Source of the DNA: Candidatus Staskawiczbacteria bacterium
GTDB lineage: Bacteria; Patescibacteriota; Minisyncoccia; Minisyncoccales; Staskawiczbacteraceae
Reading direction: 5' to 3'
NCBI GenBank assembly: GCA_026395295.1
Contig: JAPLYZ010000007.1
Span: 66,518-130,517 of the forward strand
DNA length: 64,000 nt
Part shown: positions 18,989 through 47,570 of the stretch, one piece after another
Numbering within the stretch: the first letter of the stretch is position 1
Layout: each line of letters opens with the position of its first letter
Position numbers and translations under genes: made by a program
Notes under the pieces: model-generated
What the model was told of the DNA's origin: nothing
Seen by the model: the letters and a program-made list of their open reading frames with translations, nothing else
The model's database searches: none

Positions 18989-20458
18989 CTATTTAGCAAT
19001 TCTGGGAAACAAGTTCTCTGCTTTTTGGGTATCAACGGCCTTTTTTATTTTTTCGGCGGTTTCGGGTAAAAATGGTTCAAGCAGAACTCCAATTTCTTCT
19101 ATGGCTAAAAATAAATCGTTTATGATTTCTAATTTTTTTGCCTGCCCTGAGCTTGTCGAAGGGGTCTCCCACAATTTTTCTTCGTTTATGTATTTATCGC
19201 AAGCGCTTATAATTTCCCAAACAGCTATAAGCGCCTCGTTGAATTTGAAACTCTCCACCGCCAACTTATATTTTTTTTGTTCTTCTTTTATCTTTTTTTG
19301 TAAATTGAAATTTGAAAATTTATTGGAAATTGGAAATTGGAAATTGGAAATTTTCGTTGCTATTCCCAGCACTCTCGCCACCAAATTGCCTATGCCGCCG
19401 GCCAGGTCTGAATTGTATCTTTGTTCAAACTTTTCATAAGTAAAATCGCCGTCTTCCGTTGGAAGAATTTCTCGCAACAAATAATATCTAACTGCGTCAA
19501 CTCCATACTTTTTGACCAACTCAAACGGGTCAACCACATTTCCCAGGCTTTTAGACATCTTCTGCCCGGCAACATTAATAAACCCGTGCACAAAAATTGT
19601 TTTTGGCAATTCCAACCCGGCTGACAAAAGCATCGCCGGCCAAAAAATAGTATGAAATTTCATTATATCTTTTCCTATGCAGTGAACATTTGCCGGCCAT
19701 AATTTTTTAAATTGATCTGTTTCTTCTTCATATCCTATGGCCGAAATATAATTCGGCAAAGCGTCCATCCAAACATATAGGTTCTGCGAGGGGTCTTCAG
19801 GCACCGGCCAACCCCAATATTTATCTTTCATCCTTGAAAAACTAACATCTTCCATGCCCTGTTTTAACATGGACAAGGTCTCATTTTTTTTACCCTCCGG
19901 AACAATTTCCAGCTCTCCACTATTAATCCTTTTTTCAATCTCCTTTGTGTATTTTGAAAGCCTGAAAAAATAGTTTTCTTCTTCAACCAGTTCCAATTTT
20001 TTTAAATGTATCGGGCATTTTCCGTCTATTATTTCCCGATCCGTTTTGAAGGCTTCGCATCCCGGACAATAAAAGCCTTTGTACTTTTTCTTGTAAATAT
20101 CTCCACTTTTTTCTAATTTTTTCCAAAGCTTCTCCACTGCCGGCTTATGCCTGACTTCATCGGTTGTTCTGATAAAATCGTCGTTTGAGACGTTCAAAAC
20201 TTTAACAATATCCTTAAACTTTCCGGACATTTCGTCAGCAAAATCTTTGACATCTCGACCGGCTTCTCTTGCCACTCTCAATGTTTTAATCCCATGCTCA
20301 TCAGTGCCGGTTAAGAAAAAAACATCTTCTCCTAAACCTCTGTGATATCTGGCTAAAACATCTGCCTGAACCGCTTCCAACGCAAAACCAATGTGCGGAG
20401 GCGCATTTGTATATGGTATACTGGTAGTAACGTAGAACTTTTTGCTTTTATTTGTCAT
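18989..20458 (-). CDS. metG: methionyl-tRNA synthetase
   Basis: PYTNAPPHIGF (HIGH), KMSKSLGN, Zn knuckle CPGC..C. Contains two in-frame repeat insertions. Confidence 0.9.
   Translation of the reverse strand: MTNKSKKFYVTTSIPYTNAPPHIGFALEAVQADVLARYHRGLGEDVFFLTGTDEHGIKTLRVAREAGRDVKDFADEMSGKFKDIVKVLNVSNDDFIRTTDEVRHKPAVEKLWKKLEKSGDIYKKKYKGFYCPGCEAFKTDREIIDGKCPIHLKKLELVEEENYFFRLSKYTKEIEKRINSGELEIVPEGKKNETLSMLKQGMEDVSFSRMKDKYWGWPVPEDPSQNLYVWMDALPNYISAIGYEEETDQFKKLWPANVHCIGKDIMKFHTIFWPAMLLSAGLELPKTIFVHGFINVAGQKMSKSLGNVVDPFELVKKYGVDAVRYYLLREILPTEDGDFTYEKFEQRYNSDLAGGIGNLVARVLGIATKISNFQFPISNKFSNFNLQKKIKEEQKKYKLAVESFKFNEALIAVWEIISACDKYINEEKLWETPSTSSGQAKKLEIINDLFLAIEEIGVLLEPFLPETAEKIKKAVDTQKAENLFPRIAK
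19145..19164. repeat. intragenic 21-nt element (CCCTGAGC-NN-GTCGAAGGG) in metG, encoding ETPSTSSGQAKK
   Basis: One of four copies, all in the same orientation relative to the coding strand. Confidence 0.65.
19300..19353. repeat. TTGGAAA heptamer tandem repeat (x4) inside metG, encoding NFQFPISNKFSNF
   Basis: ttggaaattggaaattggaaattggaaatt; the coding strand reads TTTCCAA. Confidence 0.65.
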
Positions 20459-20483
20459 AATGTATTAATTATAACATTTTTTT

Positions 20484-20933
20484 ATGATTTTGCTCGTACA
20501 CCTGCTATTTGGTGCCGCAATTGGGTCTGCAATAAAAAACATTCCGCTGGCGATTATCTTGGCTTTTTTAAGCCATTACTTTTTGGATCTTTTCCCCCAT
20601 ATTGAGTATCCTATTGAAAATCTCAGAAAAAAGCAATGGGATAGGGTGGCAACCGAGGTTTTAAGCATATTCCTAGATTTTTGCTTAGGAATTTTAATTA
20701 TTATTTTTCTTGCCAAAAATCAGCTCTTTGTTTATGTCTGCGCCCTTTTAGCAATAATTCCAGACGGGTTAACGGTTTTAAGTTATCTTTTCCCAAACAA
20801 AGTCTTCACGCTACACGATATTTTCCATAGGCAAAAAATTCATTTTTTAAAAGATAAAAAAATCTCCAATTTTTGGAGAATCACAAGCCAAATTTTAGCG
20901 GCTATTATTTCTATCGCGATATTAATTTCCTAG
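20484..20933 (+). CDS. hypothetical membrane protein
   Basis: 149 aa with 4 predicted TM helices; no recognised motif. Confidence 0.4.
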   Translation: MILLVHLLFGAAIGSAIKNIPLAIILAFLSHYFLDLFPHIEYPIENLRKKQWDRVATEVLSIFLDFCLGILIIIFLAKNQLFVYVCALLAIIPDGLTVLSYLFPNKVFTLHDIFHRQKIHFLKDKKISNFWRITSQILAAIISIAILIS

Positions 20934-21964
20934 TCAGATTCAAAATTGCCCTCTCTTCTTTTTTCTAAGAACTCTTTCACAAACTCAAAAATAATTCCAA
21001 AAACAGGAACCGCAAAAATCGTTCCTAAAAATCCAAACAATTTGGCTCCTACAAGTAAAGATATTAAAACCAAAACTGGCGGCACGTCTACCAGTTTTTT
21101 CATTAAAAGCGGAGTTAAAATTTTATTGTCAATTTCCTGTATTATAAACACTGCTATTAAAATATACAGCACTGTAAGCCATGAGCCAGATGAAACGGCT
21201 ATGAATACAATTAACAACACAGTGGTTATCCATGGTCCTATATATGGCACAAAATTTAAGACTCCGGAAATCAAAGCCAAAATAAAAGCGTATTTTACCC
21301 CGAAAATAAAGAATACGACAAACGAGGCCACTCCCACAAAAAGACAGGAAAGAATTCTTGCGCCAAACCACCCGGAAACTTTGTTTTGAGCTCTTTGGAA
21401 AAGCGTTACAATATTTTCTTCAAATCTTTTTGGGAATACAAGCGTCAAAAATTTCTCAAAGGCCTTGTCTTCCAAAGAAAGAAAAAAGGCAGCTGTTAAA
21501 ATAAAGGCAGTGGAATACAATCCCCCAAAAAACGTTGCCACAGCGCTCATAACTCCCTTAGAGCTCTGGGCAAGACCTCCCACTAAAAGTTTAGTAAAAT
21601 CGTCAAAGGCTTTTGCTGTGTCAATTCCGGTTTGCTGTAAAATTGGGCTGATCTGCTCGAAGTAATCTGGCAAATGCTGGGATAGTTGCTTAAGTTCTGC
21701 GATGAAGAGCGGAGCTGTCAGATAAATTAAAATCCCTAAAATGCCAAAGATTGAAAGATAGACAAACACAACTGCCAAAATTTTCGGCACCCAGAACTTT
21801 TGCAAAAAATCAATCGCCGGCGCCAGCAAAACAGATATTGCCAAGGCAAAAAAGAACCAAAGGGCAATTTCCTTGGTCAAATAAATAAAGTAAAAAACAA
21901 AAATCGCTAAAAATATCTTAGCTATTGTCTGCCATGAAACGTCTAAAACCTGTTCTTTTTCCAT
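20930..21964 (-). CDS. AI-2E family transporter (UPF0118/PerM-like)
   Basis: 8-TM architecture and AI-2E family-like sequence. Confidence 0.75.
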   Translation of the reverse strand: MEKEQVLDVSWQTIAKIFLAIFVFYFIYLTKEIALWFFFALAISVLLAPAIDFLQKFWVPKILAVVFVYLSIFGILGILIYLTAPLFIAELKQLSQHLPDYFEQISPILQQTGIDTAKAFDDFTKLLVGGLAQSSKGVMSAVATFFGGLYSTAFILTAAFFLSLEDKAFEKFLTLVFPKRFEENIVTLFQRAQNKVSGWFGARILSCLFVGVASFVVFFIFGVKYAFILALISGVLNFVPYIGPWITTVLLIVFIAVSSGSWLTVLYILIAVFIIQEIDNKILTPLLMKKLVDVPPVLVLISLLVGAKLFGFLGTIFAVPVFGIIFEFVKEFLEKRREGNFESD

Positions 21965-21966
21965 TT

Positions 21967-23244
21967 TTATAGTTTTAATAACTGCTCCAGCTTGGAAGAA
22001 TCTTTTTCTTCCACCGGGCCAACGACAGCTAAATTGAGTTTCTCTGGAACAAAAATATCTTCTGCTACTTTCTTTATATCATTTATAGAAACCTCGTCAA
22101 TCTTCTTAAATTTTTCTTCGGGCGTTAAGATATTTTTTTCCAGTAGTTCTTGAGCTCCATAAAAAGACGCTTGATGGTCTGACGAATCCAAGGACAAAGA
22201 TGTAGTTCCTTTCAGATAATCCTTTGCTTTCTGCAATTCTTTTTCTGTAATTTTTTTGTCTCTCAAGTCTCTGTACTCCTGCAAAATCAATCCCATGGCC
22301 TTCTCCAAGTTTTTATGGTCAATGCCAGCCTGAGTAACCAAATATCCCGTGTCGGTTGAGGTGTCGGTTGAGGTGTGTATTGAATATGCTAATCCATTCC
22401 TCTCCCTTACTTTTATAAAAAGACGAGAGCTCATGTTTCCTCCCAAAATAATAGAAAGCAAAGCTAGAGCGTATCTCTTCTCATCAAATAAATTGTAAGC
22501 CCGAACTCCCAAACAAAAATGCGTCTGGTCTGTTTTTTTGTAGTGCAATAAAACTTTTGGCTCTTTCTGAATTTCTTCCGCTTTATTTTTTCCGGTTGTC
22601 TTGGCTTTTTGTGCTTTCCCAAAATAACTTTTAATCTTTTCTTCCGCTTCCTTTGACTTAACTCCTCCTGCAACACAAATTATTACGTTTGACGGAGAAT
22701 AATGAGATTTGTAATAATCCAAAACCTTTTTTCTGTTGAAGCTCAATATATTTTCTTTTTCTCCTATCACCATCCATCCTGCAGGCTGGTCGTCATACAA
22801 AAGCTTTTCCCAAAGGTCGCCAACATAAGCTGTCGGGGTGTCTAAATACATATTCATCTCCTCAATTATCACTCCTTTTTCTCTTTCCATTTCCTTTTCG
22901 TCAAACTTGGAATTCAAAAATATATCAGAAATCCAGTCTAATGCAACGCCAAAATGCTTCTTATCAACTTTCGCCCAAAAACCAGTGACTTCTTTAGAAG
23001 TAAAAGCATTATACTCTCCGCCAACTGAATCTAGGGTCTCGGAAATTTTTAAAGTGTTTGGTCGTTTTTCTGTTCCTTTAAAAAACATATGCTCTAAAAA
23101 ATGAGAGATGCCGTTTATGTCTTTTGTTTCGTATTTAGATCCGGTCCCAACCAATATCAAAACCGTGACAGAGTTAGCATTTTCCATCGGAATTGTAATC
23201 ACCCTTAACCCGTTATTTAATATTGTCTTATTATATGAGTTCAT
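21967..23244 (-). CDS. M16 family zinc peptidase (insulinase-like)
   Basis: HFLEHMFFKGT inverted zinc motif (HxxEH). Confidence 0.8.
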   Translation of the reverse strand: MNSYNKTILNNGLRVITIPMENANSVTVLILVGTGSKYETKDINGISHFLEHMFFKGTEKRPNTLKISETLDSVGGEYNAFTSKEVTGFWAKVDKKHFGVALDWISDIFLNSKFDEKEMEREKGVIIEEMNMYLDTPTAYVGDLWEKLLYDDQPAGWMVIGEKENILSFNRKKVLDYYKSHYSPSNVIICVAGGVKSKEAEEKIKSYFGKAQKAKTTGKNKAEEIQKEPKVLLHYKKTDQTHFCLGVRAYNLFDEKRYALALLSIILGGNMSSRLFIKVRERNGLAYSIHTSTDTSTDTGYLVTQAGIDHKNLEKAMGLILQEYRDLRDKKITEKELQKAKDYLKGTTSLSLDSSDHQASFYGAQELLEKNILTPEEKFKKIDEVSINDIKKVAEDIFVPEKLNLAVVGPVEEKDSSKLEQLLKL

Positions 23245-23914
23245 TTTTATAAAATGGAAGCATTAATCTTATTTTTAATATCTCAAACATCATTTTTAAT
23301 CTCAAAACAAACCCCCTGAAAAATCCCCACTTCTCTTCCTTTGTTACCACTTTTAAATTATCCAAAACAACATATTTAACCGTCGAGCCCTTAATTCTGC
23401 AATAGTAGTTAAGACTTGGCTCAACCGCAAACCCTTGTAAAAATTTATCGGGAATCTTTTCAAACAGTCCTCTTTTTATTGCCCTTTCTCCTCCAATGGC
23501 CATTAAAGGGTCGAGAGTGGCAATTAATCTTGGCAGACCCAATAAACGATCTCTTATCCCAACGCACATACCTACATCTTCCTCAAGCATCGGCTTTACC
23601 AGTTTGGAAATATGCTTTTGAGACAAACCAACCAAATCAGCATCAAAAAAAACAATAATTTCAGCGTCAGTTTTTTCCAGCCCAGCCTTCATCGCGTTGC
23701 CTTTGCCACTTCCGCCTATCTTCGGCAATTTCACAACTTCTGCCCCTAATTTTTTACCAATTTCCGCAGTTCTGTCGGTTGAGCCATCGTCCACCAAAAT
23801 AACCCTATCTAAAACTTTCGAATTTAGAAGAACTTTCAAAACTTTTCCGACATTAGCCTCTTCATCTAACGCCGGCACAATGGCCGCAATCTTTTTTTTA
23901 TTTGATTTTACCAT
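23231..23914 (-). CDS. glycosyltransferase family 2 (polyprenol-phosphate sugar transferase-like)
   Basis: IVPALDEE...LVDDGSTDRT GT2 signature; DAD motif. Confidence 0.75.
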   Translation of the reverse strand: MVKSNKKKIAAIVPALDEEANVGKVLKVLLNSKVLDRVILVDDGSTDRTAEIGKKLGAEVVKLPKIGGSGKGNAMKAGLEKTDAEIIVFFDADLVGLSQKHISKLVKPMLEEDVGMCVGIRDRLLGLPRLIATLDPLMAIGGERAIKRGLFEKIPDKFLQGFAVEPSLNYYCRIKGSTVKYVVLDNLKVVTKEEKWGFFRGFVLRLKMMFEILKIRLMLPFYKNELI

Positions 23915-25379: not shown

Positions 25380-25405
25380 TTGATGTTTTTACTATTTTTT
25401 TTATT

Positions 25406-31985: not shown

Positions 31986-32148
31986 TATTCGTTAACCTAA
32001 TCTCAATTCCATTATTGCATAGAATTTATTAAAAGTAAAAAAAGAAGCGGTCTTCCACAAGGTGAGTTGTGAAAAACCGCTTTTTGGCCGCGAACGAAAG
32101 ATTCAAGGAATAAGAATTCGAAAGAATCAAGCGTTTGAGGCTTGAGGG

Positions 32149-33147
32149 TTACTGCGAGACGAACCCCGACGCAGAGCCGAAGTTGTCGCTCGGGCTGGAC
32201 ACATCGTCCGCGCCGAACTTGGCCTCGACGCTGAAGCCGAAGTACGGAGCGTGGCCGAACCGACCATCGCAGTCATCGGAGAATTCGTCGCCGGCCATGT
32301 CCATGTCCAGCTCTTCCCAGCGAACGAGGCGTTCCGGATGAACCAGAACGATTGAGCCTCCAGCGACGCTGGTAAGGCCGTACTCGCCCTTGGTGAAAGA
32401 TTCGCGTGCGAGACCGACGCAGTATCCGCCCCAACGCTTACCGAGCTGGCAAGCCTGAATACGGAAATCGCCTTGCTGTTGGTCCCGCATCTTCTGCATA
32501 ACTTCCCGAGTGTGCTGAGAGACGCGGATGTGAGCCGCGTCAATCTGGTTTTCGCGCCAGTTCGTGAACGAACGCGATTCGGCAATCTTCTGAAAGATGA
32601 GCTGCAGCGCCCGGCAGTACATCTCGGCGGGGTCTTTGACCTCGGGAAAATACTTTCGGGATAGCGCATCCTCCCACGGAACAAGGAATGCTCCTTCCAC
32701 CCAATTAGGTAGTGCGATTTTCTGCTGCACGTCCCTGTAGTAGCGAAACGCAGGTTCGGGGTCGAACCCGGGAAAATGCCGAAGCATCACCTCTGCCTGT
32801 TGCTGCATGGATTTGGGACCCTTGTACTCGCGCGGATAGTCGTAGGCCGGCCGAACCTTCTTACCCGCGTACTTGCTCTGTGGAGCGCGATGCTCCTCTA
32901 TCCAAGTAGCGATGTGTTCGGAGAGGCCAGGCGTGTCGTTAATACGCTGAGCTTCCCCTTCTGTACCATCTGACAAGCCGGCTTTATCGTAAGCGGCTGT
33001 CACGATTGACACGAACTTGAGACCTTTCGAGTCCCGTGATGTGACTGACGGAGCCAATTTTTGCATCGGAGCCATCCTTTCTACCGCGTTAAACGCGGTT
33101 TTCAATGTGCGTGTTGCGAATGCCCCGCAACAGGGCGTCCTAAACAT
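32149..33147 (-). CDS. hypothetical protein on a GC-rich (about 58% GC) foreign-looking segment
   Basis: Sharp GC and codon-usage shift (GC3-rich codons) confined to the ORF body. Putative extended -10 TGnTATAAT at 33166-33176 (minus strand). Terminator hairpin + T-run at about 32033-32079. Start is ambiguous (33147 or 33075). No recognisable family. Confidence 0.5.
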   Translation of the reverse strand: MFRTPCCGAFATRTLKTAFNAVERMAPMQKLAPSVTSRDSKGLKFVSIVTAAYDKAGLSDGTEGEAQRINDTPGLSEHIATWIEEHRAPQSKYAGKKVRPAYDYPREYKGPKSMQQQAEVMLRHFPGFDPEPAFRYYRDVQQKIALPNWVEGAFLVPWEDALSRKYFPEVKDPAEMYCRALQLIFQKIAESRSFTNWRENQIDAAHIRVSQHTREVMQKMRDQQQGDFRIQACQLGKRWGGYCVGLARESFTKGEYGLTSVAGGSIVLVHPERLVRWEELDMDMAGDEFSDDCDGRFGHAPYFGFSVEAKFGADDVSSPSDNFGSASGFVSQ

Positions 33148-33190
33148 TGTGTTCAGTATGCATTTATTATATCAAATAGTGGTTTTTATG

Positions 33191-33955
33191 TCAATGGTGA
33201 TAATTATTTTTGGAGGAATGGCCGGACAATATGTAAGCATAATAATTTTCGGAAACGTTTTCAAATAATTTTTGGCTGGACACCTCAATTTTTAATTTTG
33301 ACAGCATCTGCCAATCCTTCTTAAAAATCAATCTGAAAATTTTCACGATATCAGAATTTATCTTGGTCGCAGAGGCGTCGTGTCCTAAACACTTTTTGCA
33401 AATAGTCCCGCCAATTTTATCGGAAAAATAGATTGCGTATGGATTAAGTTTCTGCTGACATATATTACATTTTTCCACCTGAGGATGGTAACCCAACAGA
33501 GAAAGGAGACTCCACAAAAAATAATAATACAAAGCTTGGAACTTGGAACTTGGAACTTGGAACTTATCCAGCGTGGTAAATGTTTCGTTTAATAAGTTGA
33601 AGACATTTTCATCTTTTTGCTCGCCTTTTATAAAATTATCTAAAACTTCGCCTATTCTATTGGCAGTTTTAAATTTTTCTAAATCCTGCCAGACATTATT
33701 GAATTTTTCTGTTGCCACCGCATCTGTGAGAGTCTTTCGCGTCTTGCCCTGTATAAATTCTATCTCCGACATAAAAAAAATATCAATCCCGCTTCTTAGC
33801 TTAGAGGCTGTTTTCCTTATAGCCTTGCCAAAAATTTCCAGCCTGCCGAATTCTTCGGTAAAAACAGAAAAAAACCTGTCCGACTCGCCCATGTCGCTTT
33901 TCTTAAAAACAAAAGCTCTTGTTTTATATTTTAAAGCCATGCTATTTGATGCCAC
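33191..33955 (-). CDS. recO: DNA repair protein RecO
   Basis: OB-fold N-terminus and Cys4 zinc motif (CNICQQK...CKKC). Contains an in-frame heptamer repeat. Confidence 0.8.
   Translation of the reverse strand: MASNSMALKYKTRAFVFKKSDMGESDRFFSVFTEEFGRLEIFGKAIRKTASKLRSGIDIFFMSEIEFIQGKTRKTLTDAVATEKFNNVWQDLEKFKTANRIGEVLDNFIKGEQKDENVFNLLNETFTTLDKFQVPSSKFQALYYYFLWSLLSLLGYHPQVEKCNICQQKLNPYAIYFSDKIGGTICKKCLGHDASATKINSDIVKIFRLIFKKDWQMLSKLKIEVSSQKLFENVSENYYAYILSGHSSKNNYHH
33534..33564. repeat. CTTGGAA heptamer tandem repeat (x4) inside recO, encoding KFQVPSSKFQ
   Basis: cttggaacttggaacttggaacttggaactt; the coding strand reads GTTCCAA. Confidence 0.65.
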
Positions 33956-34991
33956 CGATTTTTTTTAGAAAATTTACTTCTTTCCTAATCTTAGAGTGCT
34001 CTGTGGCATTTTTAGCGCCAGACATTTTCTGATTTAGTTTTCTGATGCCTTGTTTCAAATCTGCCTTAGAAATATTACTCCCGAAATCAGAAGAAAACAC
34101 GTTCTCAATCAACTTCTCTCTTTCCATAGGACTTAACGTAAGCCCGGCCTGCTTTGCCGCCTTCCATATCTTAGTGTCTGTTTCCATTTCGTGCTCCAGT
34201 TTTAATTTAGAAACTTCAGATTTGCCCTCAAAAATAGACTGATCTGTGCTACCGGGGTGAATTGTTGATAGTTTCGTCCTGGCGCCAATTACCACATCTT
34301 GGCGCGCCACATTTTGATGCATAGAATGGGAACCCAATTTATCTTCTACAAAACCTGGCTTTTGAAGGTCTTGCTCGCCATGATCAGCGCCAATCACCGA
34401 TGCCGGAATAGACGCTGTCGGATTATGTCCTGGAATTGGAATTTTTATTCCCTGGATTGACCCCTGTGCTCTATTACCTTCCTGCGGACCAGAAGCGTTA
34501 TTGGCTCGCGATGGCATTTTCGATTCTAGCGATTCTTCATCTTGTACTTGTTTCGATTTCAGCTTACCAAGACTTTCTGAAATATCCTTCTTTTCTTTTT
34601 CCTCATAAGTTTTTACAACATCCTTCTCTTTTTCAGCAGATGCCTCGGCATTAGCGGGCGGTTTTTTCTCGCCGGCGTTAAAACTCCCCAGAGAATCTCC
34701 GCCGGAAACCTTTGGCGCAGGATTATTATTTATCTGTTCTTGATCTTTTGGCTGATGCAACCATTCTGTGCTCTGTTTTTTATTGAACTTAGCTTTTTTA
34801 ACATCTGCGCCAAATATCTTAATAATAATTTTCCTCAAAGCTTTTATAATTTTAGAAATGATTATAAAAACAACCGAGATGATAATTACGGCTGCAACTA
34901 AAAATATAGACAAAAATATTAAGTTGTCTCTGTTGGAGAGATCAATATTTTTTAATATTGAGAAATCAATTGCCATTAATAATTTTGACAA
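33942..34991 (-). CDS. hypothetical membrane-anchored protein with long low-complexity region
   Basis: N-terminal TM helix; K/E/S/G-rich disordered body; no recognised motif. Confidence 0.4.
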   Translation of the reverse strand: MSKLLMAIDFSILKNIDLSNRDNLIFLSIFLVAAVIIISVVFIIISKIIKALRKIIIKIFGADVKKAKFNKKQSTEWLHQPKDQEQINNNPAPKVSGGDSLGSFNAGEKKPPANAEASAEKEKDVVKTYEEKEKKDISESLGKLKSKQVQDEESLESKMPSRANNASGPQEGNRAQGSIQGIKIPIPGHNPTASIPASVIGADHGEQDLQKPGFVEDKLGSHSMHQNVARQDVVIGARTKLSTIHPGSTDQSIFEGKSEVSKLKLEHEMETDTKIWKAAKQAGLTLSPMEREKLIENVFSSDFGSNISKADLKQGIRKLNQKMSGAKNATEHSKIRKEVNFLKKIGGIK

Positions 34992-41378: not shown

Positions 41379-42131
41379 TTAGCTAATTACTGTGCCTATA
41401 AACGGCTTGTTATTTAAAAAATCTTCTAACCGCTCTAAATTTTTACCATTAATCATTATGACTTTTAGTTTTAACTGAGCCGCCAATTTTGAAGCTTTTG
41501 GGTCAAACGGCATTGAAAGGCCTGGTATCCATTTATCGCCCACAATTCTTTCAAAATTTTTCCAATCAATATCTTTTAGGGGCTTAGCATCGGGAAATTG
41601 AAGTGGATTCTTGTCATACACATAATCAACATTTGTAAGGTTAATTATGGTTTTTAATCCGTAATTTTTGGCTGTTAAAACAGAAACGTAATCGGTTGAC
41701 CAGCCGGGCTTGTATCCTGCGCCAACTATAATTTCCTTGGTGGTTTTTATTTTCTTTTTCGGGTCTGTAACAATTTTAGGATAAGAATAGCCGGAAAATA
41801 ACTGTTTTACAACTTCTGCGTTTAATTTTGTAACATCAATTCCAATCCAATCTCTTTCATTAGACTTTGCGCCAAATTCCAAAAGAGCTTTTTGATATGC
41901 TCTCGCAATTTTCCCTCCACCAACCAAGACAAAGAATTGTCTTGCCCTGAGCGGAGTCGAAGGGCTATCCCCGATATATTTACTAAGAGAGTGCCGGAAA
42001 TTCTTCAAAAATCCTAAATCAATCTCATCTGGCGCCACCAACGACCCTCCCAAAGATATAATTATTGTTTCCCTCGCCCCGCGAAGCGGGGTACCCTTTG
42101 GGTCGGAAGTGGGGTTTTTTACATTATCCAT
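41379..42131 (-). CDS. pyrH: UMP kinase, archaeal-type (amino-acid kinase family)
   Basis: IIISLGGSLV, VLVGGGKIAR, LTNVDYVYDKNP match archaeal-type PyrH. Extra in-frame segment DSPSTPLRARQ relative to homologues. Confidence 0.65.
   Translation of the reverse strand: MDNVKNPTSDPKGTPLRGARETIIISLGGSLVAPDEIDLGFLKNFRHSLSKYIGDSPSTPLRARQFFVLVGGGKIARAYQKALLEFGAKSNERDWIGIDVTKLNAEVVKQLFSGYSYPKIVTDPKKKIKTTKEIIVGAGYKPGWSTDYVSVLTAKNYGLKTIINLTNVDYVYDKNPLQFPDAKPLKDIDWKNFERIVGDKWIPGLSMPFDPKASKLAAQLKLKVIMINGKNLERLEDFLNNKPFIGTVIS
41945..41965. repeat. intragenic 21-nt element (CCCTGAGC-GGA-GTCGAAGGG) in pyrH, encoding SPSTPLRARQ
   Basis: Shares the TTGTCTTGC upstream flank with the polX copy. Confidence 0.65.
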
Positions 42132-42250: not shown

Positions 42251-42442
42251 TAAGATTTTTGTCGTTCGGCAAAAAACCTACCATTATCTTTTTCGTTATT
42301 TTCATATTTTTTCACGTGGCGTGAAAAAATACCCATTGTAGTTTCTTCATGTTGTTTGTTCTGTCTAACAAAGCAGTGCGATATCAAAAGGATGACAAAG
42401 CTGAGCCATGCAAAAAAAGAGCACCTACTTAATTTCGGTGCC

Positions 42443-42856: not shown

Positions 42857-42958
42857 TCCTATCCTTATTATACAGTTTAAAGTGCTACATAATACATAGC
42901 ATATAAAGAGTACGATGTCAATATTTTCTGAAATGCAAATAAATGATAATCTTAATCA

Positions 42959-43405
42959 ATGAAGATATTTAGTGAAAATAAAAAAGCGGGGTTTGATTAT
43001 GAAGTCCTGGAAAGGTTTGAGGCAGGGCTGGTTTTGTTTGGCCAAGAGGTAAAATCCATAAAAACCGGACATATAAATTTATCTGGAGCTTACGTGAGTT
43101 TGGCGTCAGGCGAGCCTTTTTTGGTGGGGGTAAAAGTGCCTCCCTACCAGCCAAATAATGCCGGAGCCGGCTACAACGACGAACGTCAAAGAAAGCTTCT
43201 TCTAAACAAAAAAGAGATTGATTATTTGCAAGGAAAGACAAAAGTTAAGGGTTTTTCGCTTATACCCTTGAAAGTTTACGAAAAGAGTGGTAGGATAAAG
43301 CTCGAATTCGGATTAGCCCGCGGTAAGAAGAAATTTGATAAAAAAGAGAAAATAAAAAAGAGAGACGTGGAAAGAGAGGTTAATCGCGAATTATCAAGGG
43401 AGTGA
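42959..43405 (+). CDS. smpB: SsrA-binding protein
   Basis: FDYEVLERFEAGLVLFGQEVKS... canonical SmpB sequence. Confidence 0.9.
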   Translation: MKIFSENKKAGFDYEVLERFEAGLVLFGQEVKSIKTGHINLSGAYVSLASGEPFLVGVKVPPYQPNNAGAGYNDERQRKLLLNKKEIDYLQGKTKVKGFSLIPLKVYEKSGRIKLEFGLARGKKKFDKKEKIKKRDVEREVNRELSRE

Positions 43406-43751
43406 ATGTTTCGATGGATAGTTTTTTTGAGTAAGGCAAGTTGAGCTTTCTTGGGGCTCGTTAATATCCGGGAAAAAACATAATTGCTAATTTATTTAAC
43501 TTTAATAAGCAACCAGCGTTAGCTTTCGCTTAATGCTGCATCCTTACCGTTGACTCCTAATAAACGGACCAAGGGTGTTATATTATTAGGATAGGCATTT
43601 CATTTCTCCGGTGACTTGCCGAAACTAAGGAGATAAGGCGTTAAAAATTTTGTTAATTCTTTATTTAACGTTCGAACACCAGAATTAACTAAACTTGTAG
43701 AATTGCTTTCAAAAACTTTTCAGACGCGAGTTCAATCTCGCCACTTCCACA
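43398..43751 (+). ncRNA. ssrA: tmRNA (ssrA)
   Basis: 5' GGGAGUGAAUGUUUCGAUGG resembles the tmRNA 5' end. 3' tRNA-like end GACGCGAGTTCAATCTCGCCACTTCCA, with acceptor GGGAGTG/CACTTCC pairing. Tag ORF 43486-43533 encodes ANLFNFNKQPALAFA*. Overlaps the smpB stop codon. Confidence 0.7.
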
Positions 43752-43782
43752 CTTCGACAAACTCAGTGTAAACCAAAAAACT

Positions 43783-44289
43783 TTGGATAAAATTTTAATC
43801 AACAATTTCATAAGGGCAAAAGAGGTACGGGTTATTTCAGAAACCGGCGAACAGCTGGGAGTTATGAATATCTTTCAAGCAATTGATTTGGCAAAATCAA
43901 AAAGTTTGGACTTAATCCAAGTTACAGAAAAGGTTGAACCGCCAGTTTGCAGGATTGGAAATTACGGAAAATATCTTTATCAGCAACAAAAAAAGGAAAA
44001 GAAAATGACAAAACCCAAGGGCGGAGACTTGAAAGAAATAAGATTAACTTTTAACATTTCACCCCACGACATGGAAGTAAGGGCAAAACAAGCTAAAAAA
44101 TTCTTAGACGATGGCGACAAAGTTAAAATAAATATGTCGCTAAGGGGCAGAGAGAAAGCAATGGGCGGATTTGCCACAGAAAAAGTAAAATTATTTTTAG
44201 GAAATTTAAATTCGTTAATACCAATTAAAACAGAGAGAGAATTAAAACGTGAACCCAGAGGTTTCACAATGATTGTCTCTAAGCAATAA
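43783..44289 (+). CDS. infC: translation initiation factor IF-3
   Basis: INNFIRAKEVRVI...; the C-terminal domain is conserved. Confidence 0.85.
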   Translation: MDKILINNFIRAKEVRVISETGEQLGVMNIFQAIDLAKSKSLDLIQVTEKVEPPVCRIGNYGKYLYQQQKKEKKMTKPKGGDLKEIRLTFNISPHDMEVRAKQAKKFLDDGDKVKINMSLRGREKAMGGFATEKVKLFLGNLNSLIPIKTERELKREPRGFTMIVSKQ

Positions 44290-44290
44290 T

Positions 44291-44479
44291 ATGAATAAGA
44301 CTAAAAAAGCCTTGATAAAAAGGTTCAAAATAACAAAAAACGGCAAAATTTTAAGACGAGCAACCGGCCAAAACCATTATAGATCAAAAAAAACCGGCGA
44401 GCAGAGGAGAAAAGGTCGCAAATGGATACCTCTAGCAAAAAACGAGGCGCAAAAATTAAAAAAGTTTTTAACCAAGTAA
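44291..44479 (+). CDS. rpmI: 50S ribosomal protein L35
   Basis: MNKTKKALIKRFKITKNGKILRR; internal start used. Confidence 0.8.
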   Translation: MNKTKKALIKRFKITKNGKILRRATGQNHYRSKKTGEQRRKGRKWIPLAKNEAQKLKKFLTK

Positions 44480-44480
44480 C

Positions 44481-44834
44481 ATGTCAAGAGTCAAAAGAGC
44501 TGTGCTTGCCCGCAAACACAGAAAAGGCATAATGAAACATGCCAAGGGCTACAGGCAGGCAAGAAAATCAAAATTTAAAGCGGCAAAAGACGCATTAAGA
44601 CATGCGTGGACTTATGCATACAGAGACAGAAAAAATAAAAAGAGAACTTTCAGGAATTTGTGGAATTTGCAGATCAATGCGTTAGCAAGACAAAACGGGA
44701 TCACGTACAGCAGGCTGATGGAGGGCTTAAGAAAGAAAAGCATAGAATTAGACAGAAAAGTTTTGTCTGAATTAGCAAACGATTATCCCGAAGTGTTTAT
44801 AAAAATCGTAGAAGAAGTACGTTCAACCAAATAG
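44481..44834 (+). CDS. rplT: 50S ribosomal protein L20
   Basis: MSRVKRAVLARKHRK...; infC-rpmI-rplT operon order. Confidence 0.9.
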   Translation: MSRVKRAVLARKHRKGIMKHAKGYRQARKSKFKAAKDALRHAWTYAYRDRKNKKRTFRNLWNLQINALARQNGITYSRLMEGLRKKSIELDRKVLSELANDYPEVFIKIVEEVRSTK

Positions 44835-44908
44835 AAAACAAAAAAAGAACCGCTTCCTGAAAAGGGGGCGGTTTTCGTTTGTGTTATATCCATAAATCAC
44901 GCCAAAGT

Positions 44909-45196
44909 TTAGCCTGATGGATACCTTATCGTTGTGAATATTTCAAGGTTCCTGAATGCGCGACTCAGCAGGACCGCTATCTCTGACTCGGTTACTGGGA
45001 AAAAATAGAAACTGGCTGCTGTTGCAGAATATCTTGATCCGCTCCAGCGAAGATGTCGAACAACATCGTGCGCTTCTTTGGTAAACACATAGACCTCCGC
45101 TCCAAACAGGGGCATTATCTTAACAACTAAATCATACCCATTAGACATTGATATCTCGCAATCTCCCCAGACGTTTTTCATTAGAAGAGCTCTCAT
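44909..45196 (-). CDS. hypothetical small protein (compositionally atypical, about 46% GC)
   Basis: 95-aa ORF with no recognised motif; convergent with rplT. Confidence 0.3.
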   Translation of the reverse strand: MRALLMKNVWGDCEISMSNGYDLVVKIMPLFGAEVYVFTKEAHDVVRHLRWSGSRYSATAASFYFFPVTESEIAVLLSRAFRNLEIFTTIRYPSG

Positions 45197-45306
45197 TTTT
45201 GCCTCCTTCTCAAATCAATAGGTGTATCATCATATCTCTTACTATCACATTTTTTGCTCTAAGTAAACAAAAAAACGCCACTGCGTCTATAATTTTTAAT
45301 TGGGCA

Positions 45307-45792
45307 CTATCTTTCAATTTTTATAATGAAATCATTTGCCTCTTTCAATAATTTTTTTGAATTTTTGAACGTTGTTTTCTTAATTGCCTCGGCAATGGGC
45401 AACCATAAAAATCCTGAATGCTCAGAAGAAATTTTAATTTCTTTGGTTTTTGTTTCTGCAGCAAAAAATGCCACCAATTTAAAAACCCATGGAGTTTTCC
45501 CTGCCTTTCTGTCTGCTTCAGAAACATTTTCTTTATATTGTCTGAAAAAATATTTCATATACTTTTTGAAACCCGGAATAAGTTTTAAATCTTTGATGCC
45601 GGTTTCTTCTGCCACCTCTCTTCTTACGGTCTCTTCCTCGGTCTCTTTTCCTTCAATGTGCCCCTTGGGAAACTCCCAATGACCCGACCCGTAATGCAAA
45701 AGTAAAAAATATCTTTTATATTTTTTACCCTGAGCCGAGTCGAAGGGCTCGTCTCTGAAAATTATAGCTCCTGCTGATTTTTCTTTAGGCAT
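45307..45792 (-). CDS. NUDIX hydrolase
   Basis: Nudix box GHWEFPKGHIEGKETEEETVRREVAEETG. Extra in-frame segment DEPFDSAQGKK. Confidence 0.75.
   Translation of the reverse strand: MPKEKSAGAIIFRDEPFDSAQGKKYKRYFLLLHYGSGHWEFPKGHIEGKETEEETVRREVAEETGIKDLKLIPGFKKYMKYFFRQYKENVSEADRKAGKTPWVFKLVAFFAAETKTKEIKISSEHSGFLWLPIAEAIKKTTFKNSKKLLKEANDFIIKIER
45728..45748. repeat. intragenic 21-nt element (CCCTGAGC-CGA-GTCGAAGGG) in NUDIX gene, encoding EPFDSAQG
   Basis: Different reading frame through the element than in the other three copies. Confidence 0.65.
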
Positions 45793-47570
45793 TACTTAAA
45801 AAATTCTAATAATTTTTCTACGGACAACGTGTTTATTATATCTGCTTTTTCTGCCCAGCCACGATGTGCTTGACCAATTCCATATTCCATCAAATTCAAC
45901 TGTTCTTTATTGTGGCTGTCTGTGTTTATTATCATCTTTAATCCATGCGTTTTGGCTCTTCGAATGTTGAAACCATTCAGATCCAATCTCAAGGGCGAGG
46001 AATTAATTTCTAAAATTGTGCCATTTTCCTTGGCAACTTCTAAAATTTTATCAAAATCCATTTGATATTCGTCTCTTTTTCCAATCAGCCTCCCGGTTGG
46101 ATGGCCAAATATATCAACATTACGGTTCTTTATGGCTTTTATTATTCTGGCTGTCATTTTTTTCTTTTCCATTTTCATACCTGAATGCACGCTGGCAATA
46201 ACATAATCTAATTTTTCTAAAATTTCGTCCTTCGCATTAAGCGATCCGTCCAACATTATGTCTGCCTCGCACCCATGCAACACTCTAAATTTCAAATTTT
46301 GTTTTTTAAATTTTGCATTTAGCTCTTCTATTTTTTTATGCTGTTTTAGAATTTCTTTTTCGTCTAGCCCATTGGTCACTCCCAAAAATTTCGTATGGTC
46401 GGAAATTCCCACATATTCATAGCCTAAATCCATTGCCGAACGAACCATTTCTTCAATTGAATCTTTTCCGTCGGAAGCAACCGTGTGGCAGTGCAGGTCG
46501 CCCTTTATATCTTTTTGTTTAATCAAAACAGGCAACGAACCGTTTAAAACAGCTTGAATTTCTCCATCGTCTTCGCGCATTTCCGGAGCTACAAAAGAAA
46601 GTCCAATTGCTTTATAAACATCTTCCTCGGTTGCCCCCGCTATTTGTCTTGCTCGCCCTGAGCCTGTCGAAGGGTTCCCTTCGAAAACTCCGTATTCAGA
46701 AAGTTTTAACCCTTTCTCAATGGCAATTTTCCGCGTGCTAATGTTGTGTTCCTTGGAGCCTGTAAAATATTGTAAAGCCGAGCCAAAACTTTCTCTTTTC
46801 ACCATTCTCAAGTCCACATCAAAGCCAGCTTTAAGCCTTACAGAGCATTTTGTAGAACCTTCTGCCCAAATTTTTTCAACCTCGGGCAAGCTAACAAAAA
46901 AATCAGCTGTTTTTTTAGGATTTTCCGACACCACTAAAATATCGATGTCTCCAATTGTCTCCTTCTGTCGTCTTACCGAGCCGGCAACGCTCACTTCTTT
47001 TATTTCCTTTCTTGCCCTTAAGCTCTCCTCAATAATTTTTACAGTCGGCATAATATCTCCAAGCAAAAACCTGCCTTTACTCCTCTTCAAAAATTCCAAC
47101 CCTTGCAAAATATTCTGCTCTGTTTTTTCTCCAAAACCAAAAAGCGGAGATATTTTATGGGCTTTAGCGGCTTTTCCCAAATCTTTCAAATCTTTAACTC
47201 CCAGTTCCCGATAAAGAACTTTTATTTTTTTAGGACCAAGGCTTTCAACCCTCAACAACTCGTCAACCTTCAGGGGTAACTTTTTTTTGAGCTCTTCCAA
47301 GCTTTTTATTTTTCCGCTTTTTAAATATTCCTCAATAGCTTTGGCAATTCCTTCGCCAACTCCCGGAATTTCTTGCAAACCTTTAATTCCTTTGCTTCTG
47401 TAAATTTCGCCAACATCCTCTTTCCAGTTATCTAAAGATAACGCCACTTTTCTGTAAGCATAGGGCTTAAAATCCACGCCTTCTATTTCCAAATAATCAG
47501 CCATTTCAAAAAATATTTTAGATAATTCCTGATTTTTCACCCCGTTAGAAGTCTTCTTTTTATTTTTCAA
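45792..47570 (-). CDS. polX: DNA polymerase X family protein with C-terminal PHP domain
   Basis: HhH motifs, pol-beta nucleotidyltransferase GSVRRQKETIGDIDILV, PHP domain DLHCHTVASDG. Confidence 0.85.
   Translation of the reverse strand: MKNKKKTSNGVKNQELSKIFFEMADYLEIEGVDFKPYAYRKVALSLDNWKEDVGEIYRSKGIKGLQEIPGVGEGIAKAIEEYLKSGKIKSLEELKKKLPLKVDELLRVESLGPKKIKVLYRELGVKDLKDLGKAAKAHKISPLFGFGEKTEQNILQGLEFLKRSKGRFLLGDIMPTVKIIEESLRARKEIKEVSVAGSVRRQKETIGDIDILVVSENPKKTADFFVSLPEVEKIWAEGSTKCSVRLKAGFDVDLRMVKRESFGSALQYFTGSKEHNISTRKIAIEKGLKLSEYGVFEGNPSTGSGRARQIAGATEEDVYKAIGLSFVAPEMREDDGEIQAVLNGSLPVLIKQKDIKGDLHCHTVASDGKDSIEEMVRSAMDLGYEYVGISDHTKFLGVTNGLDEKEILKQHKKIEELNAKFKKQNLKFRVLHGCEADIMLDGSLNAKDEILEKLDYVIASVHSGMKMEKKKMTARIIKAIKNRNVDIFGHPTGRLIGKRDEYQMDFDKILEVAKENGTILEINSSPLRLDLNGFNIRRAKTHGLKMIINTDSHNKEQLNLMEYGIGQAHRGWAEKADIINTLSVEKLLEFFK
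46656..46685. repeat. intragenic 21-nt element (CCCTGAGC-CT-GTCGAAGGG) in polX, encoding NPSTGSGRARQ
   Basis: This copy is extended into a perfect palindrome TCGAAGGGTTCCCTTCGA. Confidence 0.65.

What the first reader, a model, noticed from the sequence alone, without database searches (positions are those of the whole stretch)
19145..46685. A 21-nt GC-rich element (CCCTGAGC-N2-3-GTCGAAGGG) inserted in frame in four unrelated housekeeping genes
Copies occur at 19145-19164 (metG), 41945-41965 (pyrH), 45728-45748 (NUDIX) and 46656-46685 (polX). All share one orientation relative to the coding strand. All are translated straight through: ETPSTSSGQAKK, SPSTPLRARQ, EPFDSAQGKK, NPSTGSGRARQ. In pyrH and the NUDIX gene the encoded residues are extra relative to the conserved family alignment. 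The pyrH segment lies between the ..LS.. region and the VGGG motif; the NUDIX segment lies before the LLL..HW.FPKG box. Two subfamilies share extended flanks: TTGTCTTGC in pyrH/polX and a T6 run in metG/NUDIX. The polX copy completes a perfect palindrome TCGAAGGGTTCCCTTCGA. The behaviour resembles Rickettsia palindromic elements, which insert into ORFs without destroying them, but this element is far shorter at 7 codons. It could be a miniature in-frame mobile or selfish element, or a DNA/RNA motif under selection that proteins tolerate.
Basis: seen in the sequence. Interest (0 to 1): 0.8.

Follow-up and report, generated by a model that had tools for sequence, protein, structure and literature searches.

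The report
Tiny hairpin repeat inserted inside genes
A 24-base hairpin-forming DNA repeat, found across many bacterial phyla, has landed in frame inside at least five essential genes of this tiny-genome bacterium, adding 8 harmless amino acids each time; this kind of event is already documented for similar repeats in other bacteria.

Summary
The motif occurs four times exactly (none expected), and I found two degenerate copies: one in topA and one just after the tmRNA gene. The source is a Candidatus Staskawiczbacteria genome (CPR). In metG, pyrH, NUDIX, polX and topA, most orthologues, including close ones, lack exactly 8 codons (24 nt) at the site. So these are clean in-frame insertions, without target duplication, each immediately 5' of an A-run.

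Occupancy is patchy: the metG site needs at least 12 gain/loss events among 119 homologues. Some copies are decayed, some nested. The element is a small hairpin with a conserved TGAGC-N2-3-GTCGAA interior and a covarying 3-6 bp stem. It belongs to a family present in many phyla and in viral contigs. There it is mostly intergenic, as inverted doublets and arrays, like REP/BIME elements.

Published work (Di Nocera et al. 2013) already documents REPs inside housekeeping genes encoding 7-8 residues, and a REP class with no dedicated transposase. I found no RAYT link and no Rfam or literature match for this sequence family.

Verdict: a new member of a known kind (a REP-like hairpin repeat, RPE-like in behaviour). 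How it moves is unknown. Interest is moderate.

The parts
19139..19162 (-). 24-nt insert in metG (sense CCTTCGACAAGCTCAGGGCAGGCA, peptide PSTSSGQA); hairpin core at 19145-19163
   Evidence: Exact motif. The empty allele in a close relative reads GAG ACC|AAA AAA, against GAG ACC|24 nt|AAA AAA in the window. 103 of 119 homologues are empty. The insert lies at an inter-helix coil/helix N-cap in the AF2 model.
41943..41966 (-). 24-nt insert in the pyrH-like kinase gene (sense AGCCCTTCGACTCCGCTCAGGGCA, peptide SPSTPLRA); 3-nt-spacer variant
   Evidence: Exact motif. 8 of 10 orthologous loci lack exactly 8 codons; L171 and L140 carry mutationally decayed versions at the same site.
45724..45747 (-). 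24-nt insert in the NUDIX gene (sense CCCTTCGACTCGGCTCAGGGTAAA, peptide PFDSAQGK); 3-nt-spacer variant
   Evidence: Exact motif. About 45 orthologues lack 8 codons; only the window, L147 and L166 are filled, at the identical codon position.
46651..46674 (-). 24-nt insert in polX (sense CCCTTCGACAGGCTCAGGGCGAGC, peptide within NPSTGSGRA)
   Evidence: Exact motif. About 70 of 80 polX orthologues, including those at 75-80% identity, lack exactly 8 codons. L135 has the same insert with a second unit nested at its apex.
5841..5864 (+). Degenerate 24-nt insert in topA (peptide RSTSSGQA; core TTCGACAAGCTCA intact, stem decayed)
   Evidence: 2-mismatch match at 5840-5858. About 112 of 120 TopA homologues lack these 8 residues; 5 others have related inserts and one has the composite form.
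43750..43773 (+). Intergenic copy (CAC-TTCGACAAACTCA-GTG plus tail TAAAC) starting right after the tmRNA 3' end, upstream of infC
   Evidence: 3-mismatch match. tmRNA is at 43398-43752. The same arrangement is present in L145, L151 and L210 but absent from about 30 other tmRNA loci.

Best explanation
The copies belong to a REP-like miniature hairpin repeat. The unit is about 24 nt. On the strand that reads as sense in these genes it is a 3-4 nt stem arm, TTCGAC, a 2-3 nt spacer, GCTCA, the complementary stem arm, and a 4-5 nt tail (C/T-R-R-R-C).

Shown: it folds as a hairpin in single-stranded nucleic acid, because the stem covaries while the interior is invariant. Inferred: on the complementary strand the interior can form T-A, tandem sheared G.A and G-C pairs closing a 5-6 nt apical loop that holds the variable spacer.

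Shown: in most phyla the family is intergenic, as inverted doublets and arrays. In this Staskawiczbacteria lineage, single units have been inserted into genes without target duplication, immediately 5' of A-runs.

Inferred: copies persist in coding sequence only when they add a multiple of 3 nt (24, 48 or 51 seen), carry no stop codon (the sense orientation is open in all three frames), and fall in surface loops. There they are translated as 8 Pro/Ser/Thr/Gly/Gln-rich residues. So they are tolerated passengers, not functional parts of the proteins.

Inferred, with no enzyme identified: the unit is copied or moved in trans through a single-stranded DNA intermediate, by an enzyme or host replication process not encoded in the window.
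For: Not chance: 4 exact copies against 0 expected; core 5 against 0.01 expected.

Clean 24-nt insertions relative to orthologues at all five genic sites.

Patchy occupancy: at least 12 gain/loss events at the one metG site, with 16 of 119 filled. Filled NUDIX sites occur in three scattered lineages. The tmRNA-adjacent site is filled in only about 4-5 of 36 lineages.

Two different variants (2-nt spacer PSTSSGQA and 3-nt spacer PSTPLRAG) occupy the same metG site, both 24 nt, which argues for more than one insertion event.

Decayed copies exist (pyrH in L171 and L140; metG P0009) alongside perfect ones. Nested or composite units occur at the apex (L135, L213), and the same composite appears in a topA homologue.

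Hairpin: 82.9% of cells paired against 34-51% when slid; covariation score 0.47 against 0.17 in shuffles, 0 of 500 reaching it.

Family-wide: the same spacer and flank signature in 120 genome loci from many phyla and 120 viral contigs. REPIN/BIME-like doublets and arrays. Unannotated and intergenic on proteobacterial plasmids.

All of roughly 15 genic copies (about 10 independent sites) in 937 kb of Staskawiczbacteria-like DNA are sense.

The insert lies at a coil/helix cap with lowered pLDDT in MetRS.

Precedent for intragenic 7-8-residue REP inserts, and for REP classes without a transposase (PMC3733652).
Against: No mobilising enzyme was found. There is no Y1/RAYT homologue in the window or in any Staskawiczbacteria locus. 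The one RayT-like gene next to a copy (L052) belongs to a clade whose canonical members are flanked by an unrelated palindrome.

Movement was never observed; it is inferred from presence/absence.

Repeated occupancy of exactly the same nucleotide position could also reflect one old insertion plus precise losses, or selection.

Conservation of the 13-nt interior across phyla is unusual for REPs, which are normally lineage-specific, and hints at a constraint beyond selfish spread.

The sense-only bias in genes is not fully explained by stop avoidance (3 sense frames open against 2 antisense). One antisense genic copy exists (L061, a prepilin leader).

Only 64 kb of the source genome was examined.
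Confidence: 0.62

Rival explanations
1. It is a functional nucleic-acid signal under selection, for example a protein-binding or processing hairpin in RNA, or a DNA signal such as an uptake or replication/repair site. Proteins merely tolerate it, and it is maintained because the cell uses it.
For: The 13-nt interior is invariant across many phyla and in viral contigs while the stems covary. The four window copies are perfect. Filled NUDIX sites in lineages with diverged flanks keep 23 of 24 nt. Orientation in genes is strongly biased. A copy recurs directly after the tmRNA (and one tRNA-Glu) 3' end.
Against: Presence is patchy even among close relatives at every site, including the tmRNA site. 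Decayed copies are tolerated. Density is low and uneven: 6 per 64 kb here against 17 per 873 kb in relatives. Intergenic copies have the opposite polarity to genic ones relative to neighbouring genes. There is no Rfam family even at E <= 10.
Confidence: 0.17
2. It propagates without a transposase. The hairpin is copied into new sites by the host replication/repair machinery, through template switching or microhomology-mediated copying at A/T runs, so no dedicated enzyme exists.
For: No transposase was found in 1.86 Mb of held DNA apart from one unrelated RayT clade. All mapped insertion points abut an A-run and show 1-2 nt of junction microhomology (ACC|CC......GCA|AAAAAA). Published CGTC-type REPs likewise lack a dedicated transposase. 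Cross-phylum conservation would follow from a physical property of the hairpin and not from one protein's specificity.
Against: This is purely inferential. Template switching would not obviously give a fixed 24-nt unit with defined ends, nor repeated use of the identical nucleotide position. There is no experimental precedent that I can cite for this element.
Confidence: 0.15
3. The peptides are ancestral loop sequence, or convergent low-complexity linkers, and not insertions; the DNA similarity is a by-product.
For: All sites are variable loops where length differences are common, and some other lineages have unrelated inserts in the same polX loop.
Against: 17-20 identical nucleotides are shared by unrelated genes and read in different frames. 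Most orthologues, including close ones, lack exactly 24 nt. The same DNA word is repeated in intergenic DNA of many phyla.
Confidence: 0.02
4. The element is not translated. It is skipped or removed, by translational bypass or by excision from the RNA.
For: In L166 the NUDIX gene has an in-frame TAA immediately 5' of the element, while the reading frame is conserved on both sides.
Against: Every genic copy adds a multiple of three nucleotides and is stop-free in the host frame, which would be unnecessary if it were skipped. The hairpins are weak. The single L166 case may be a pseudogene, a sequencing error or an alternative start.
Confidence: 0.03

Closest known systems
REP / BIME / REPIN elements (repetitive extragenic palindromes), as surveyed by Di Nocera, De Gregorio and Rocco 2013 (PMC3733652)
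   Same: Both are 20-40 nt imperfect palindromes forming small hairpins. Both occur as singletons, head-to-head doublets and arrays with alternating unit types. Both are mostly intergenic and unannotated. Occasional copies lie inside genes, encode 7-8 residues per single unit, and are thought neutral when in loops. Copy number varies between related lineages.
   Different: There is no GTAG tag, and no RAYT was found. The interior (TGAGC-N2-3-GTCGAA) is conserved across many phyla, whereas typical REPs are lineage-specific. In this CPR lineage most copies are intragenic single units, not extragenic. The encoded peptides (PFDKLRA / PSTSSGQA / LRQAQG; antisense LSLSKG / PELVEG) are absent from the published tables.
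CGTC-tagged REP superfamily (includes Rickettsia RPE-4/RPE-6 and Neisseria dRS3)
   Same: If the tandem G.A pairs are counted, the architecture is close: an 8-9 'bp' stem, a 5-nt loop and a short tail. Both are predominantly head-to-head dimers, are found in several phyla including sphingomonads, have no dedicated transposase, and have intragenic members. A subset of this family carries a TGTC tag directly 5' of the stem (11 of 206 genome copies, 15 of 146 viral copies).
   Different: The window copies lack an adjacent CGTC/TGTC/CCTC tag, lack the A-T pairs at stem positions 1-2, and lack the CCA tail. The stem and loop sequences differ from the four published CGTC families.
Rickettsia palindromic elements (RPE-1; Ogata et al. 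2000, cited from my own knowledge and via PMC3733652 and PMC3184786)
   Same: Both are palindromic repeats inserted in frame into essential genes (including tRNA synthetases and nucleic-acid enzymes), translated, and located in surface regions without destroying function.
   Different: RPE-1 is about 100-150 bp (30-50 residues) and restricted to Rickettsia. This unit is 24 nt (8 residues) and belongs to a family spread over many phyla.
MITEs and IS200/IS605-derived palindrome-associated elements
   Same: Both are small, non-autonomous and hairpin-forming, and empty/filled site comparisons indicate insertion. Like IS200/IS605 derivatives, there is no target duplication.
   Different: There are no terminal inverted repeats beyond the 3-4 nt stem, no target-site duplication (unlike MITEs), no fixed 4-5 nt target word, no TnpA found, and the unit is far shorter.

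Membership tests
REP (RAYT-associated, GTAG type) | Short (20-40 nt) imperfect palindrome able to form a stem-loop | tested here: met
   19-20 nt hairpin with a covarying stem; 82.9% of cells paired against 34-51% in slid controls.
REP (RAYT-associated, GTAG type) | Unpaired GTAG tetranucleotide at one end | tested here: not met
   The flanks of the six window copies and of 206 genome copies show no GTAG; the 5-nt flank is G-Y-Y-Y-R / C-R-R-R-C.
REP (RAYT-associated, GTAG type) | A RAYT (Y1 HUH transposase) gene in the genome, typically flanked by the REPs | tested here: inconclusive
   There is no Y1/RAYT hit in the window or in about 1 Mb of Staskawiczbacteria-like loci (the queries were written from memory). 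L052 has a RayT-like gene 55 nt from a copy, but homologues in L216 and L217 are flanked by a different palindrome. The whole source genome was not available.
REP (RAYT-associated, GTAG type) | Predominantly extragenic, often as inverted dimers or clusters | tested here: inconclusive
   Met for the family in other phyla (33 of 50 copies intergenic in low-GC loci, doublets and arrays). Not met in this lineage, where about 15 of 22 copies are intragenic singletons.
CGTC-tagged REP superfamily (PMC3733652) | Terminal unpaired CGTC (or TGTC/CCTC) motif | tested here: not met
   The window copies are preceded, on the TGAGC strand, by GCCTG, TCTTG, TTTTA and GCTCG. Only a minority elsewhere have TGTCA (11 of 206 and 15 of 146).
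CGTC-tagged REP superfamily (PMC3733652) | 8-9 bp stem with A-T pairs at positions 1-2, a 4-5 nt loop, and a CCA-like tail | tested here: not met
   The stem is 8 'pairs' only if two G.A mismatches are counted. The outer pairs are G-C, not A-T. The loop is 5-6 nt. The tail is C-R-R-R-C, not CCA.
CGTC-tagged REP superfamily (PMC3733652) | No dedicated transposase; head-to-head dimers predominate; intragenic members occur | tested here: met
   for this family; for the published definition.
Rickettsia palindromic elements (RPE) | In-frame insertion into protein-coding genes with the host protein retained | tested here: met
   Five genes with clean 8-codon inserts and intact conserved domains.
Rickettsia palindromic elements (RPE) | Element length about 100-150 bp and Rickettsia-type consensus sequence | tested here: not met
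   The unit is 24 nt. The host is Staskawiczbacteria.
MITE | Terminal inverted repeats plus a target-site duplication | tested here: not met
   Filled against empty sites show no duplicated target. The only inverted repeat is the 3-4 nt stem.
DNA uptake sequences (DUS/USS) | Very high genomic density (about 1 per kb), arising by point mutation, not by insertion | tested here: not met
   6 per 64 kb here and 17 per 873 kb in relatives. The copies are 24-nt insertions.
Any curated RNA family (Rfam 15) | Match to a covariance model | tested here: not met
   No hit overlaps any copy at gathering thresholds or at E <= 10.

The most novel reading that the evidence does not exclude
The TGAGC-N2-3-GTCGAA hairpin is a pan-bacterial (and phage-borne) self-propagating DNA unit of only 24 nt. 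It moves without any dedicated transposase, inserting and perhaps excising precisely next to A-runs by exploiting universal replication/repair machinery. That would explain both its cross-phylum sequence constancy and the repeated hits at identical nucleotide positions. It is still active in CPR bacteria, where it remodels the loops of essential proteins.
Probability: 0.18. Interest if true: 0.75.

Novelty: new member of a known kind. Interest (0 to 1): 0.4.

Why it matters
If the reading is right, this is an uncatalogued REP-like family with three useful properties. It has an unusually constant interior across many phyla and on viral DNA. It has a very small, well-defined unit (24 nt). And in CPR bacteria it shows many filled/empty site pairs inside well-aligned essential genes. 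Those pairs give nucleotide-exact insertion junctions, which are hard to obtain for intergenic REPs. They could therefore help answer the old question of how REP-type elements without a RAYT are generated and lost. Practically, the element also explains recurring 'junk' peptides (PFDKLRA.., LSLSKG.., LRQAQG.., PSTSSGQA) in predicted proteins, and 8-residue indels that can mislead alignments and phylogenies of CPR housekeeping proteins.

Tried and rejected
(1) RAYT/Y1 transposase link. A tblastn search with E. coli RAYT and IS200 TnpA (sequences from memory) against all 1.86 Mb of held DNA gave only one weak hit, L052. That ORF is RayT-like, but its homologues are flanked by GGAGACGCAATGCATTGCGTCTCC or sit inside type I R-M operons. 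Rejected as support.

(2) tRNA/tmRNA 3'-end function. ARAGORN found only one tRNA-adjacent copy (L021). nhmmer over 35 tmRNA loci showed the tmRNA-adjacent copy is patchy, not conserved.

(3) Transposon ends with cargo. The distance distribution between matching half-sites is 2 nt (155) or 3 nt (63); the few longer forms carry only an extra small hairpin at the apex.

(4) Replication-strand explanation of the orientation. Intergenic copies in L134 and L164 have the opposite polarity to genic copies on the same strand.

(5) Which strand folds. G.T against A.C counts were 29 against 16, p = 0.07, and base composition predicts a similar skew, so the test is inconclusive. ViennaRNA energies are weak for both strands.

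(6) Rfam at gathering thresholds and at E <= 10: nothing.

(7) Literature searches for the DNA strings and encoded peptides: no relevant hit.

(8) A seventh candidate at 435-449 (the peptide word FDKLS) is the conserved HisRS motif read on the other strand, not a copy.

(9) By inspection only, with no tool test: the motif does not fit the hammerhead core (CUGANGA...GAAA), a k-turn, or a 7-nt T-loop.

(10) A gene bracketed by inverted copies (L117) is an IS5-type transposase that probably inserted into a doublet.

Full report
OBSERVATION. The pattern CCCTGAGC-N2-3-GTCGAAGGG occurs four times in the window (19145, 41945, 45728, 46656), all on the + strand, and none of 100 dinucleotide-preserving shuffles gave a match. 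Allowing mismatches adds two copies on the - strand. One is 5840-5858 (TCCTGAGCTTGTCGAACGG). The other is 43750-43768 (CACTGAGTTTGTCGAAGTG) (0.02 expected). The shorter core TGAGC-N2-3-GTCGAA occurs 5 times against 0.01 expected.

The four exact copies lie in minus-strand ORFs that Pfam identifies as MetRS, an amino-acid-kinase-family (UMP-kinase-like) protein, a NUDIX hydrolase and PolX. The fifth lies in plus-strand topA. All five are read through in the host frame, so all five have the same polarity relative to the coding strand (mRNA sense = CCC-TTCGAC-NN(N)-GCTCA-GGG). The frames differ, however: PST... in metG, pyrH, polX and topA, and PFD... in NUDIX. The sixth copy begins immediately after the 3' end of a tmRNA gene (Rfam, 43398-43752) and precedes infC. 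The source organism is a Candidatus Staskawiczbacteria MAG (CPR/Parcubacteria); the window's MetRS and TopA are identical to NCBI proteins on a 162,653-bp contig.

THEY ARE INSERTIONS. I fetched 80 metagenome loci encoding PolX relatives (51-80% identity). About 70 read EYGVFKG--------KQIAG where the window reads EYGVFEGNPSTGSGRARQIAG. In the same loci, about 45 NUDIX orthologues lack exactly 8 codons; only the window, L147 and L166 are filled. For pyrH, 8 of 10 orthologues lack 8 codons, and L171 and L140 carry decayed versions (DPTSPRLRGALR, DPAKSPNGVRGVK).

For MetRS, 103 of 119 homologues read EEKLWET--------KK. For TopA, about 112 of 120 lack the 8 residues. At the DNA level the difference is always 24 nt. 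For example, the empty metG site is GAG ACC|AAA AAA and the filled one is GAG ACC|CCTTCGACAAGCTCAGGGCAGGCA|AAA AAA. There is no target duplication and no flanking direct repeat. All mapped insertion points lie just 5' of an A-run: ACC|AAAAAA, GGGAA|AAAACAA, AAAGAA|AAT, AAC|AAGCAA, and after the tmRNA TCCACA|AAAAA.

An AlphaFold2 model of the window's MetRS (mean pLDDT 86) places the insert at an inter-helix coil and the N-cap of the next helix, with a local dip in confidence.

TURNOVER. Filled metG sites are scattered over the MetRS tree with empty sister lineages. Fitch parsimony on the NJ tree needs at least 12 changes. Two different variants occupy that one site. One is the 2-nt-spacer form (PSTSSGQA). 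The other is the 3-nt-spacer form, whose downstream half is therefore read in another frame (PSTPLRAG). Both are exactly 24 nt, which is hard to derive one from the other and suggests separate insertions.

PolX has a second site in other lineages (GEIQAAL[RQAQGK..]LP), where the element is read in its third frame. Nested forms exist. L135 polX carries a 24-nt unit inserted at the apical spacer of a resident copy, and L213 metG carries a 27-nt unit at the same place. The same composite (…RASTEF[S/G]RMSSGQA) recurs in a TopA homologue. The tmRNA-adjacent copy is present in the window, L145, L151 and the distant L210, with different stems and spacers, but absent from about 30 other tmRNA loci. 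It is therefore another recurrent insertion point and not a conserved tmRNA feature. Copy density is 6 per 64 kb in the window against 17 per 873 kb in relatives.

WHAT THE ELEMENT IS. These came from Bacteroidota, Actinomycetota (including cultured Microbacterium, Agromyces and Microlunatus), Cyanobacteria, Chloroflexota, Acidobacteriota, Proteobacteria, Planctomycetota, Spirochaetota, Saccharibacteria, Parcubacteria, Peregrinibacteria and others. Seventeen fixed bases in about 600 Gb would give on the order of 100 chance hits, so the count alone proves nothing. But the free positions are far from random. The spacer is TT in 47, CT in 34 and GGA in 10 of 133 copies. The flanks recur (CCGTTCG, GCCTG, TGTCA). 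Many copies have an inverted partner 25-65 nt away. Viral contigs show the same signature (146 copies; TT 47, CT 45, GNA spacers).

In copies not selected on their stems, the positions flanking the invariant TGAGC-NN-GTCGAA interior pair in 93%, 92% and 78% of cases, using many different sequences. Overall 82.9% of cells pair, against 34-51% when partners are slid. The covariation score is 0.47 against 0.17 in shuffles, with 0 of 500 shuffles reaching it. So the element is a hairpin with a covarying 3-6 bp stem and a conserved interior.

My structural reading is an inference from the Y-GA-R context, not a test. On the TGAGC strand the interior continues the stem as T-A, tandem sheared G.A, and G-C, closing a 5-6 nt apical loop that contains the variable spacer. 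The 3-nt spacers are mostly GNA. Consistent with this, the spacer is 2 nt (155 copies) or 3 nt (63 copies), and the rare longer versions carry an extra small hairpin exactly there. Which strand matters could not be decided.

In Microbacterium and elsewhere the units form arrays and doublets that alternate two stem types in opposite orientation, like the Y/Z units of BIMEs (the comparison is from my own knowledge). On Sphingobium and other proteobacterial replicons the doublet occurs up to 14 times per record, always without an annotated feature. In low-GC non-CPR genomes the copies are intergenic (33 of 50). The in-gene habit appears in CPR lineages: Staskawiczbacteria; Saccharibacteria L048 (HPSTSLRAN); and one antisense case in Parcubacteria L061, where the element encodes a prepilin leader, ALSQSKG|FTIVELL.

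ORIENTATION. In 937 kb of window plus relatives, all of roughly 15 genic copies, at about 10 independent sites, are sense. The sense strand is open in all three frames (PFDKLRAG / PSTSSGQA / LRQAQGR), whereas the antisense strand has TGA in one frame. Stop avoidance alone therefore predicts only 3:2, which gives about 0.6^10 = 0.006 for independent sites. The bias is not a replication-strand effect. Intergenic copies in L134/L171 and L164 lie between co-directional genes, after a terminator-like hairpin and 12-20 nt before the next ATG, and they have the opposite polarity. Whether the bias reflects the peptide, the mRNA structure or a transcription-coupled insertion step is open.

MECHANISM. 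What is shown: a hairpin-forming 24-nt unit; clean insertion next to A-runs; patchy occupancy; decay; nesting; an intergenic doublet/array lifestyle elsewhere; and presence on viral DNA.

What is inferred: copies are made or moved in trans through single-stranded DNA, and only 3n-long, stop-free copies in surface loops survive within genes.

I looked for the obvious candidate enzyme and did not find it. There is no Y1/RAYT homologue in the window or in any Staskawiczbacteria locus. The single RayT-like gene beside a copy (L052; NCBIfam REP_Tyr_transpos E = 2.7e-13, below the curated cutoff) belongs to a clade whose canonical members are flanked by an unrelated palindrome or are embedded in type I R-M operons. 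A transposase-free route (template switching at A-runs with 1-2 nt microhomology) remains a live alternative.

COMPARISON WITH WHAT IS KNOWN. Di Nocera et al. 2013 (PMC3733652) sorted REPs into GTAG- and CGTC-tagged superfamilies. They reported head-to-head dimers. They found CGTC REPs in five phyla, including Sphingomonas and Sphingobium, with Rickettsia RPE-4/RPE-6 as members, and noted that this class has no dedicated transposase. They also listed intragenic REPs in many housekeeping genes, with single units encoding 7-8 residues, for example in Opitutus terrae FtsY, SUI1, RF3, DNA ligase and UvrA, and in tRNA synthetases of sphingomonads.

The present family matches the kind (architecture, organisation, lack of a transposase, intragenic members) but fails the defining tags of both superfamilies. 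Its encoded peptides are not in their tables. Its DNA strings and peptide words are not in the searchable literature. No Rfam model matches it. I therefore file it as a new member of a known kind: a REP-like hairpin repeat, RPE-like in its in-frame behaviour.

VERDICT. The 'inserted, selfish, RPE-like' interpretation is supported. The claim of a new class of element is not. The points of real interest are the cross-phylum constancy of the interior, the 24-nt unit, the repeated occupancy of identical nucleotide positions, and the abundance of exact filled/empty junctions in CPR essential genes. Interest 0.4.

Noticed in passing
L166:5314-5400: The NUDIX orthologue has an in-frame TAA immediately 5' of its element copy (…IIYIK*PFDNAQGKEDSR…), while the reading frame is conserved on both sides. 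It could be a pseudogene, a sequencing error, an alternative start, or a hint of read-through or bypass.
   Followed up: partly
L061:~6150 (minus strand of the locus): In a Parcubacteria genome the element sits in antisense orientation inside a gene and encodes the leader of a prepilin-type protein (MALSQSKG|FTIVELL). The LSLSKG-frame peptide supplies the KG before the cleavage motif, which looks like possible co-option.
   Followed up: no
L213:516-2006 (metG) and one TopA homologue: The same 51-nt composite recurs in two different genes of other genomes. It is a GGC/GCC-stem unit nested at the apex of a CCC/GGG-stem unit, with peptide …(T/A)RASTEF(S/G)RMSSGQA. The nested form therefore seems to propagate as a unit.
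   Followed up: partly
L145, L154, L155, L164, L165, L188, L201 (polX, after GEIQAAL): There is a second polX insertion site in other lineages, where the element is read in its third frame (LRQAQGK…). It is independent of the window's polX site.
   Followed up: partly
window 8000-9000: Gene orientation switches from + (2037-8493) to - (8984 onward). The GC skew changes sign and the cumulative skew peaks here, with a tRNA at 8851-8934. This is a possible replication terminus, or simply a local strand switch.
   Followed up: no
window 32001-34000: This is the locally highest G+C in the window (0.46 against about 0.38), over ORFs 32149-33147 and 33191-33955. No Rfam hit. Not examined.
   Followed up: no
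L215:473-5973 and L218:473-6272: A RayT-family (REP-associated tyrosine transposase-like) gene is embedded between an HsdR-like helicase/nuclease gene and an N6-adenine methyltransferase gene, with overlapping start and stop codons. This suggests a domesticated RayT within a type I restriction-modification-like operon.
   Followed up: no
L216:2800-3800 and L217:2750-3950: Canonical RayT genes in Marivirga and Chryseobacterium are flanked on both sides by copies of a perfect palindrome, GGAGACGCAATGCATTGCGTCTCC. This is presumably their own REP and is unrelated to the element studied here.
   Followed up: partly
window 43741-43790: The tmRNA gene does not encode CCA (…ACTTCCA|CAC…). infC appears to start at TTG 43783 or at an upstream non-ATG codon, and the element copy occupies most of the 30-nt gap between the two genes.
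   Followed up: no
L212:11675-11932 and L213:2172-2510: Relatives carry a csrA gene directly downstream of metG. The window has TatD-like and other genes there instead, so local synteny differs.
   Followed up: no
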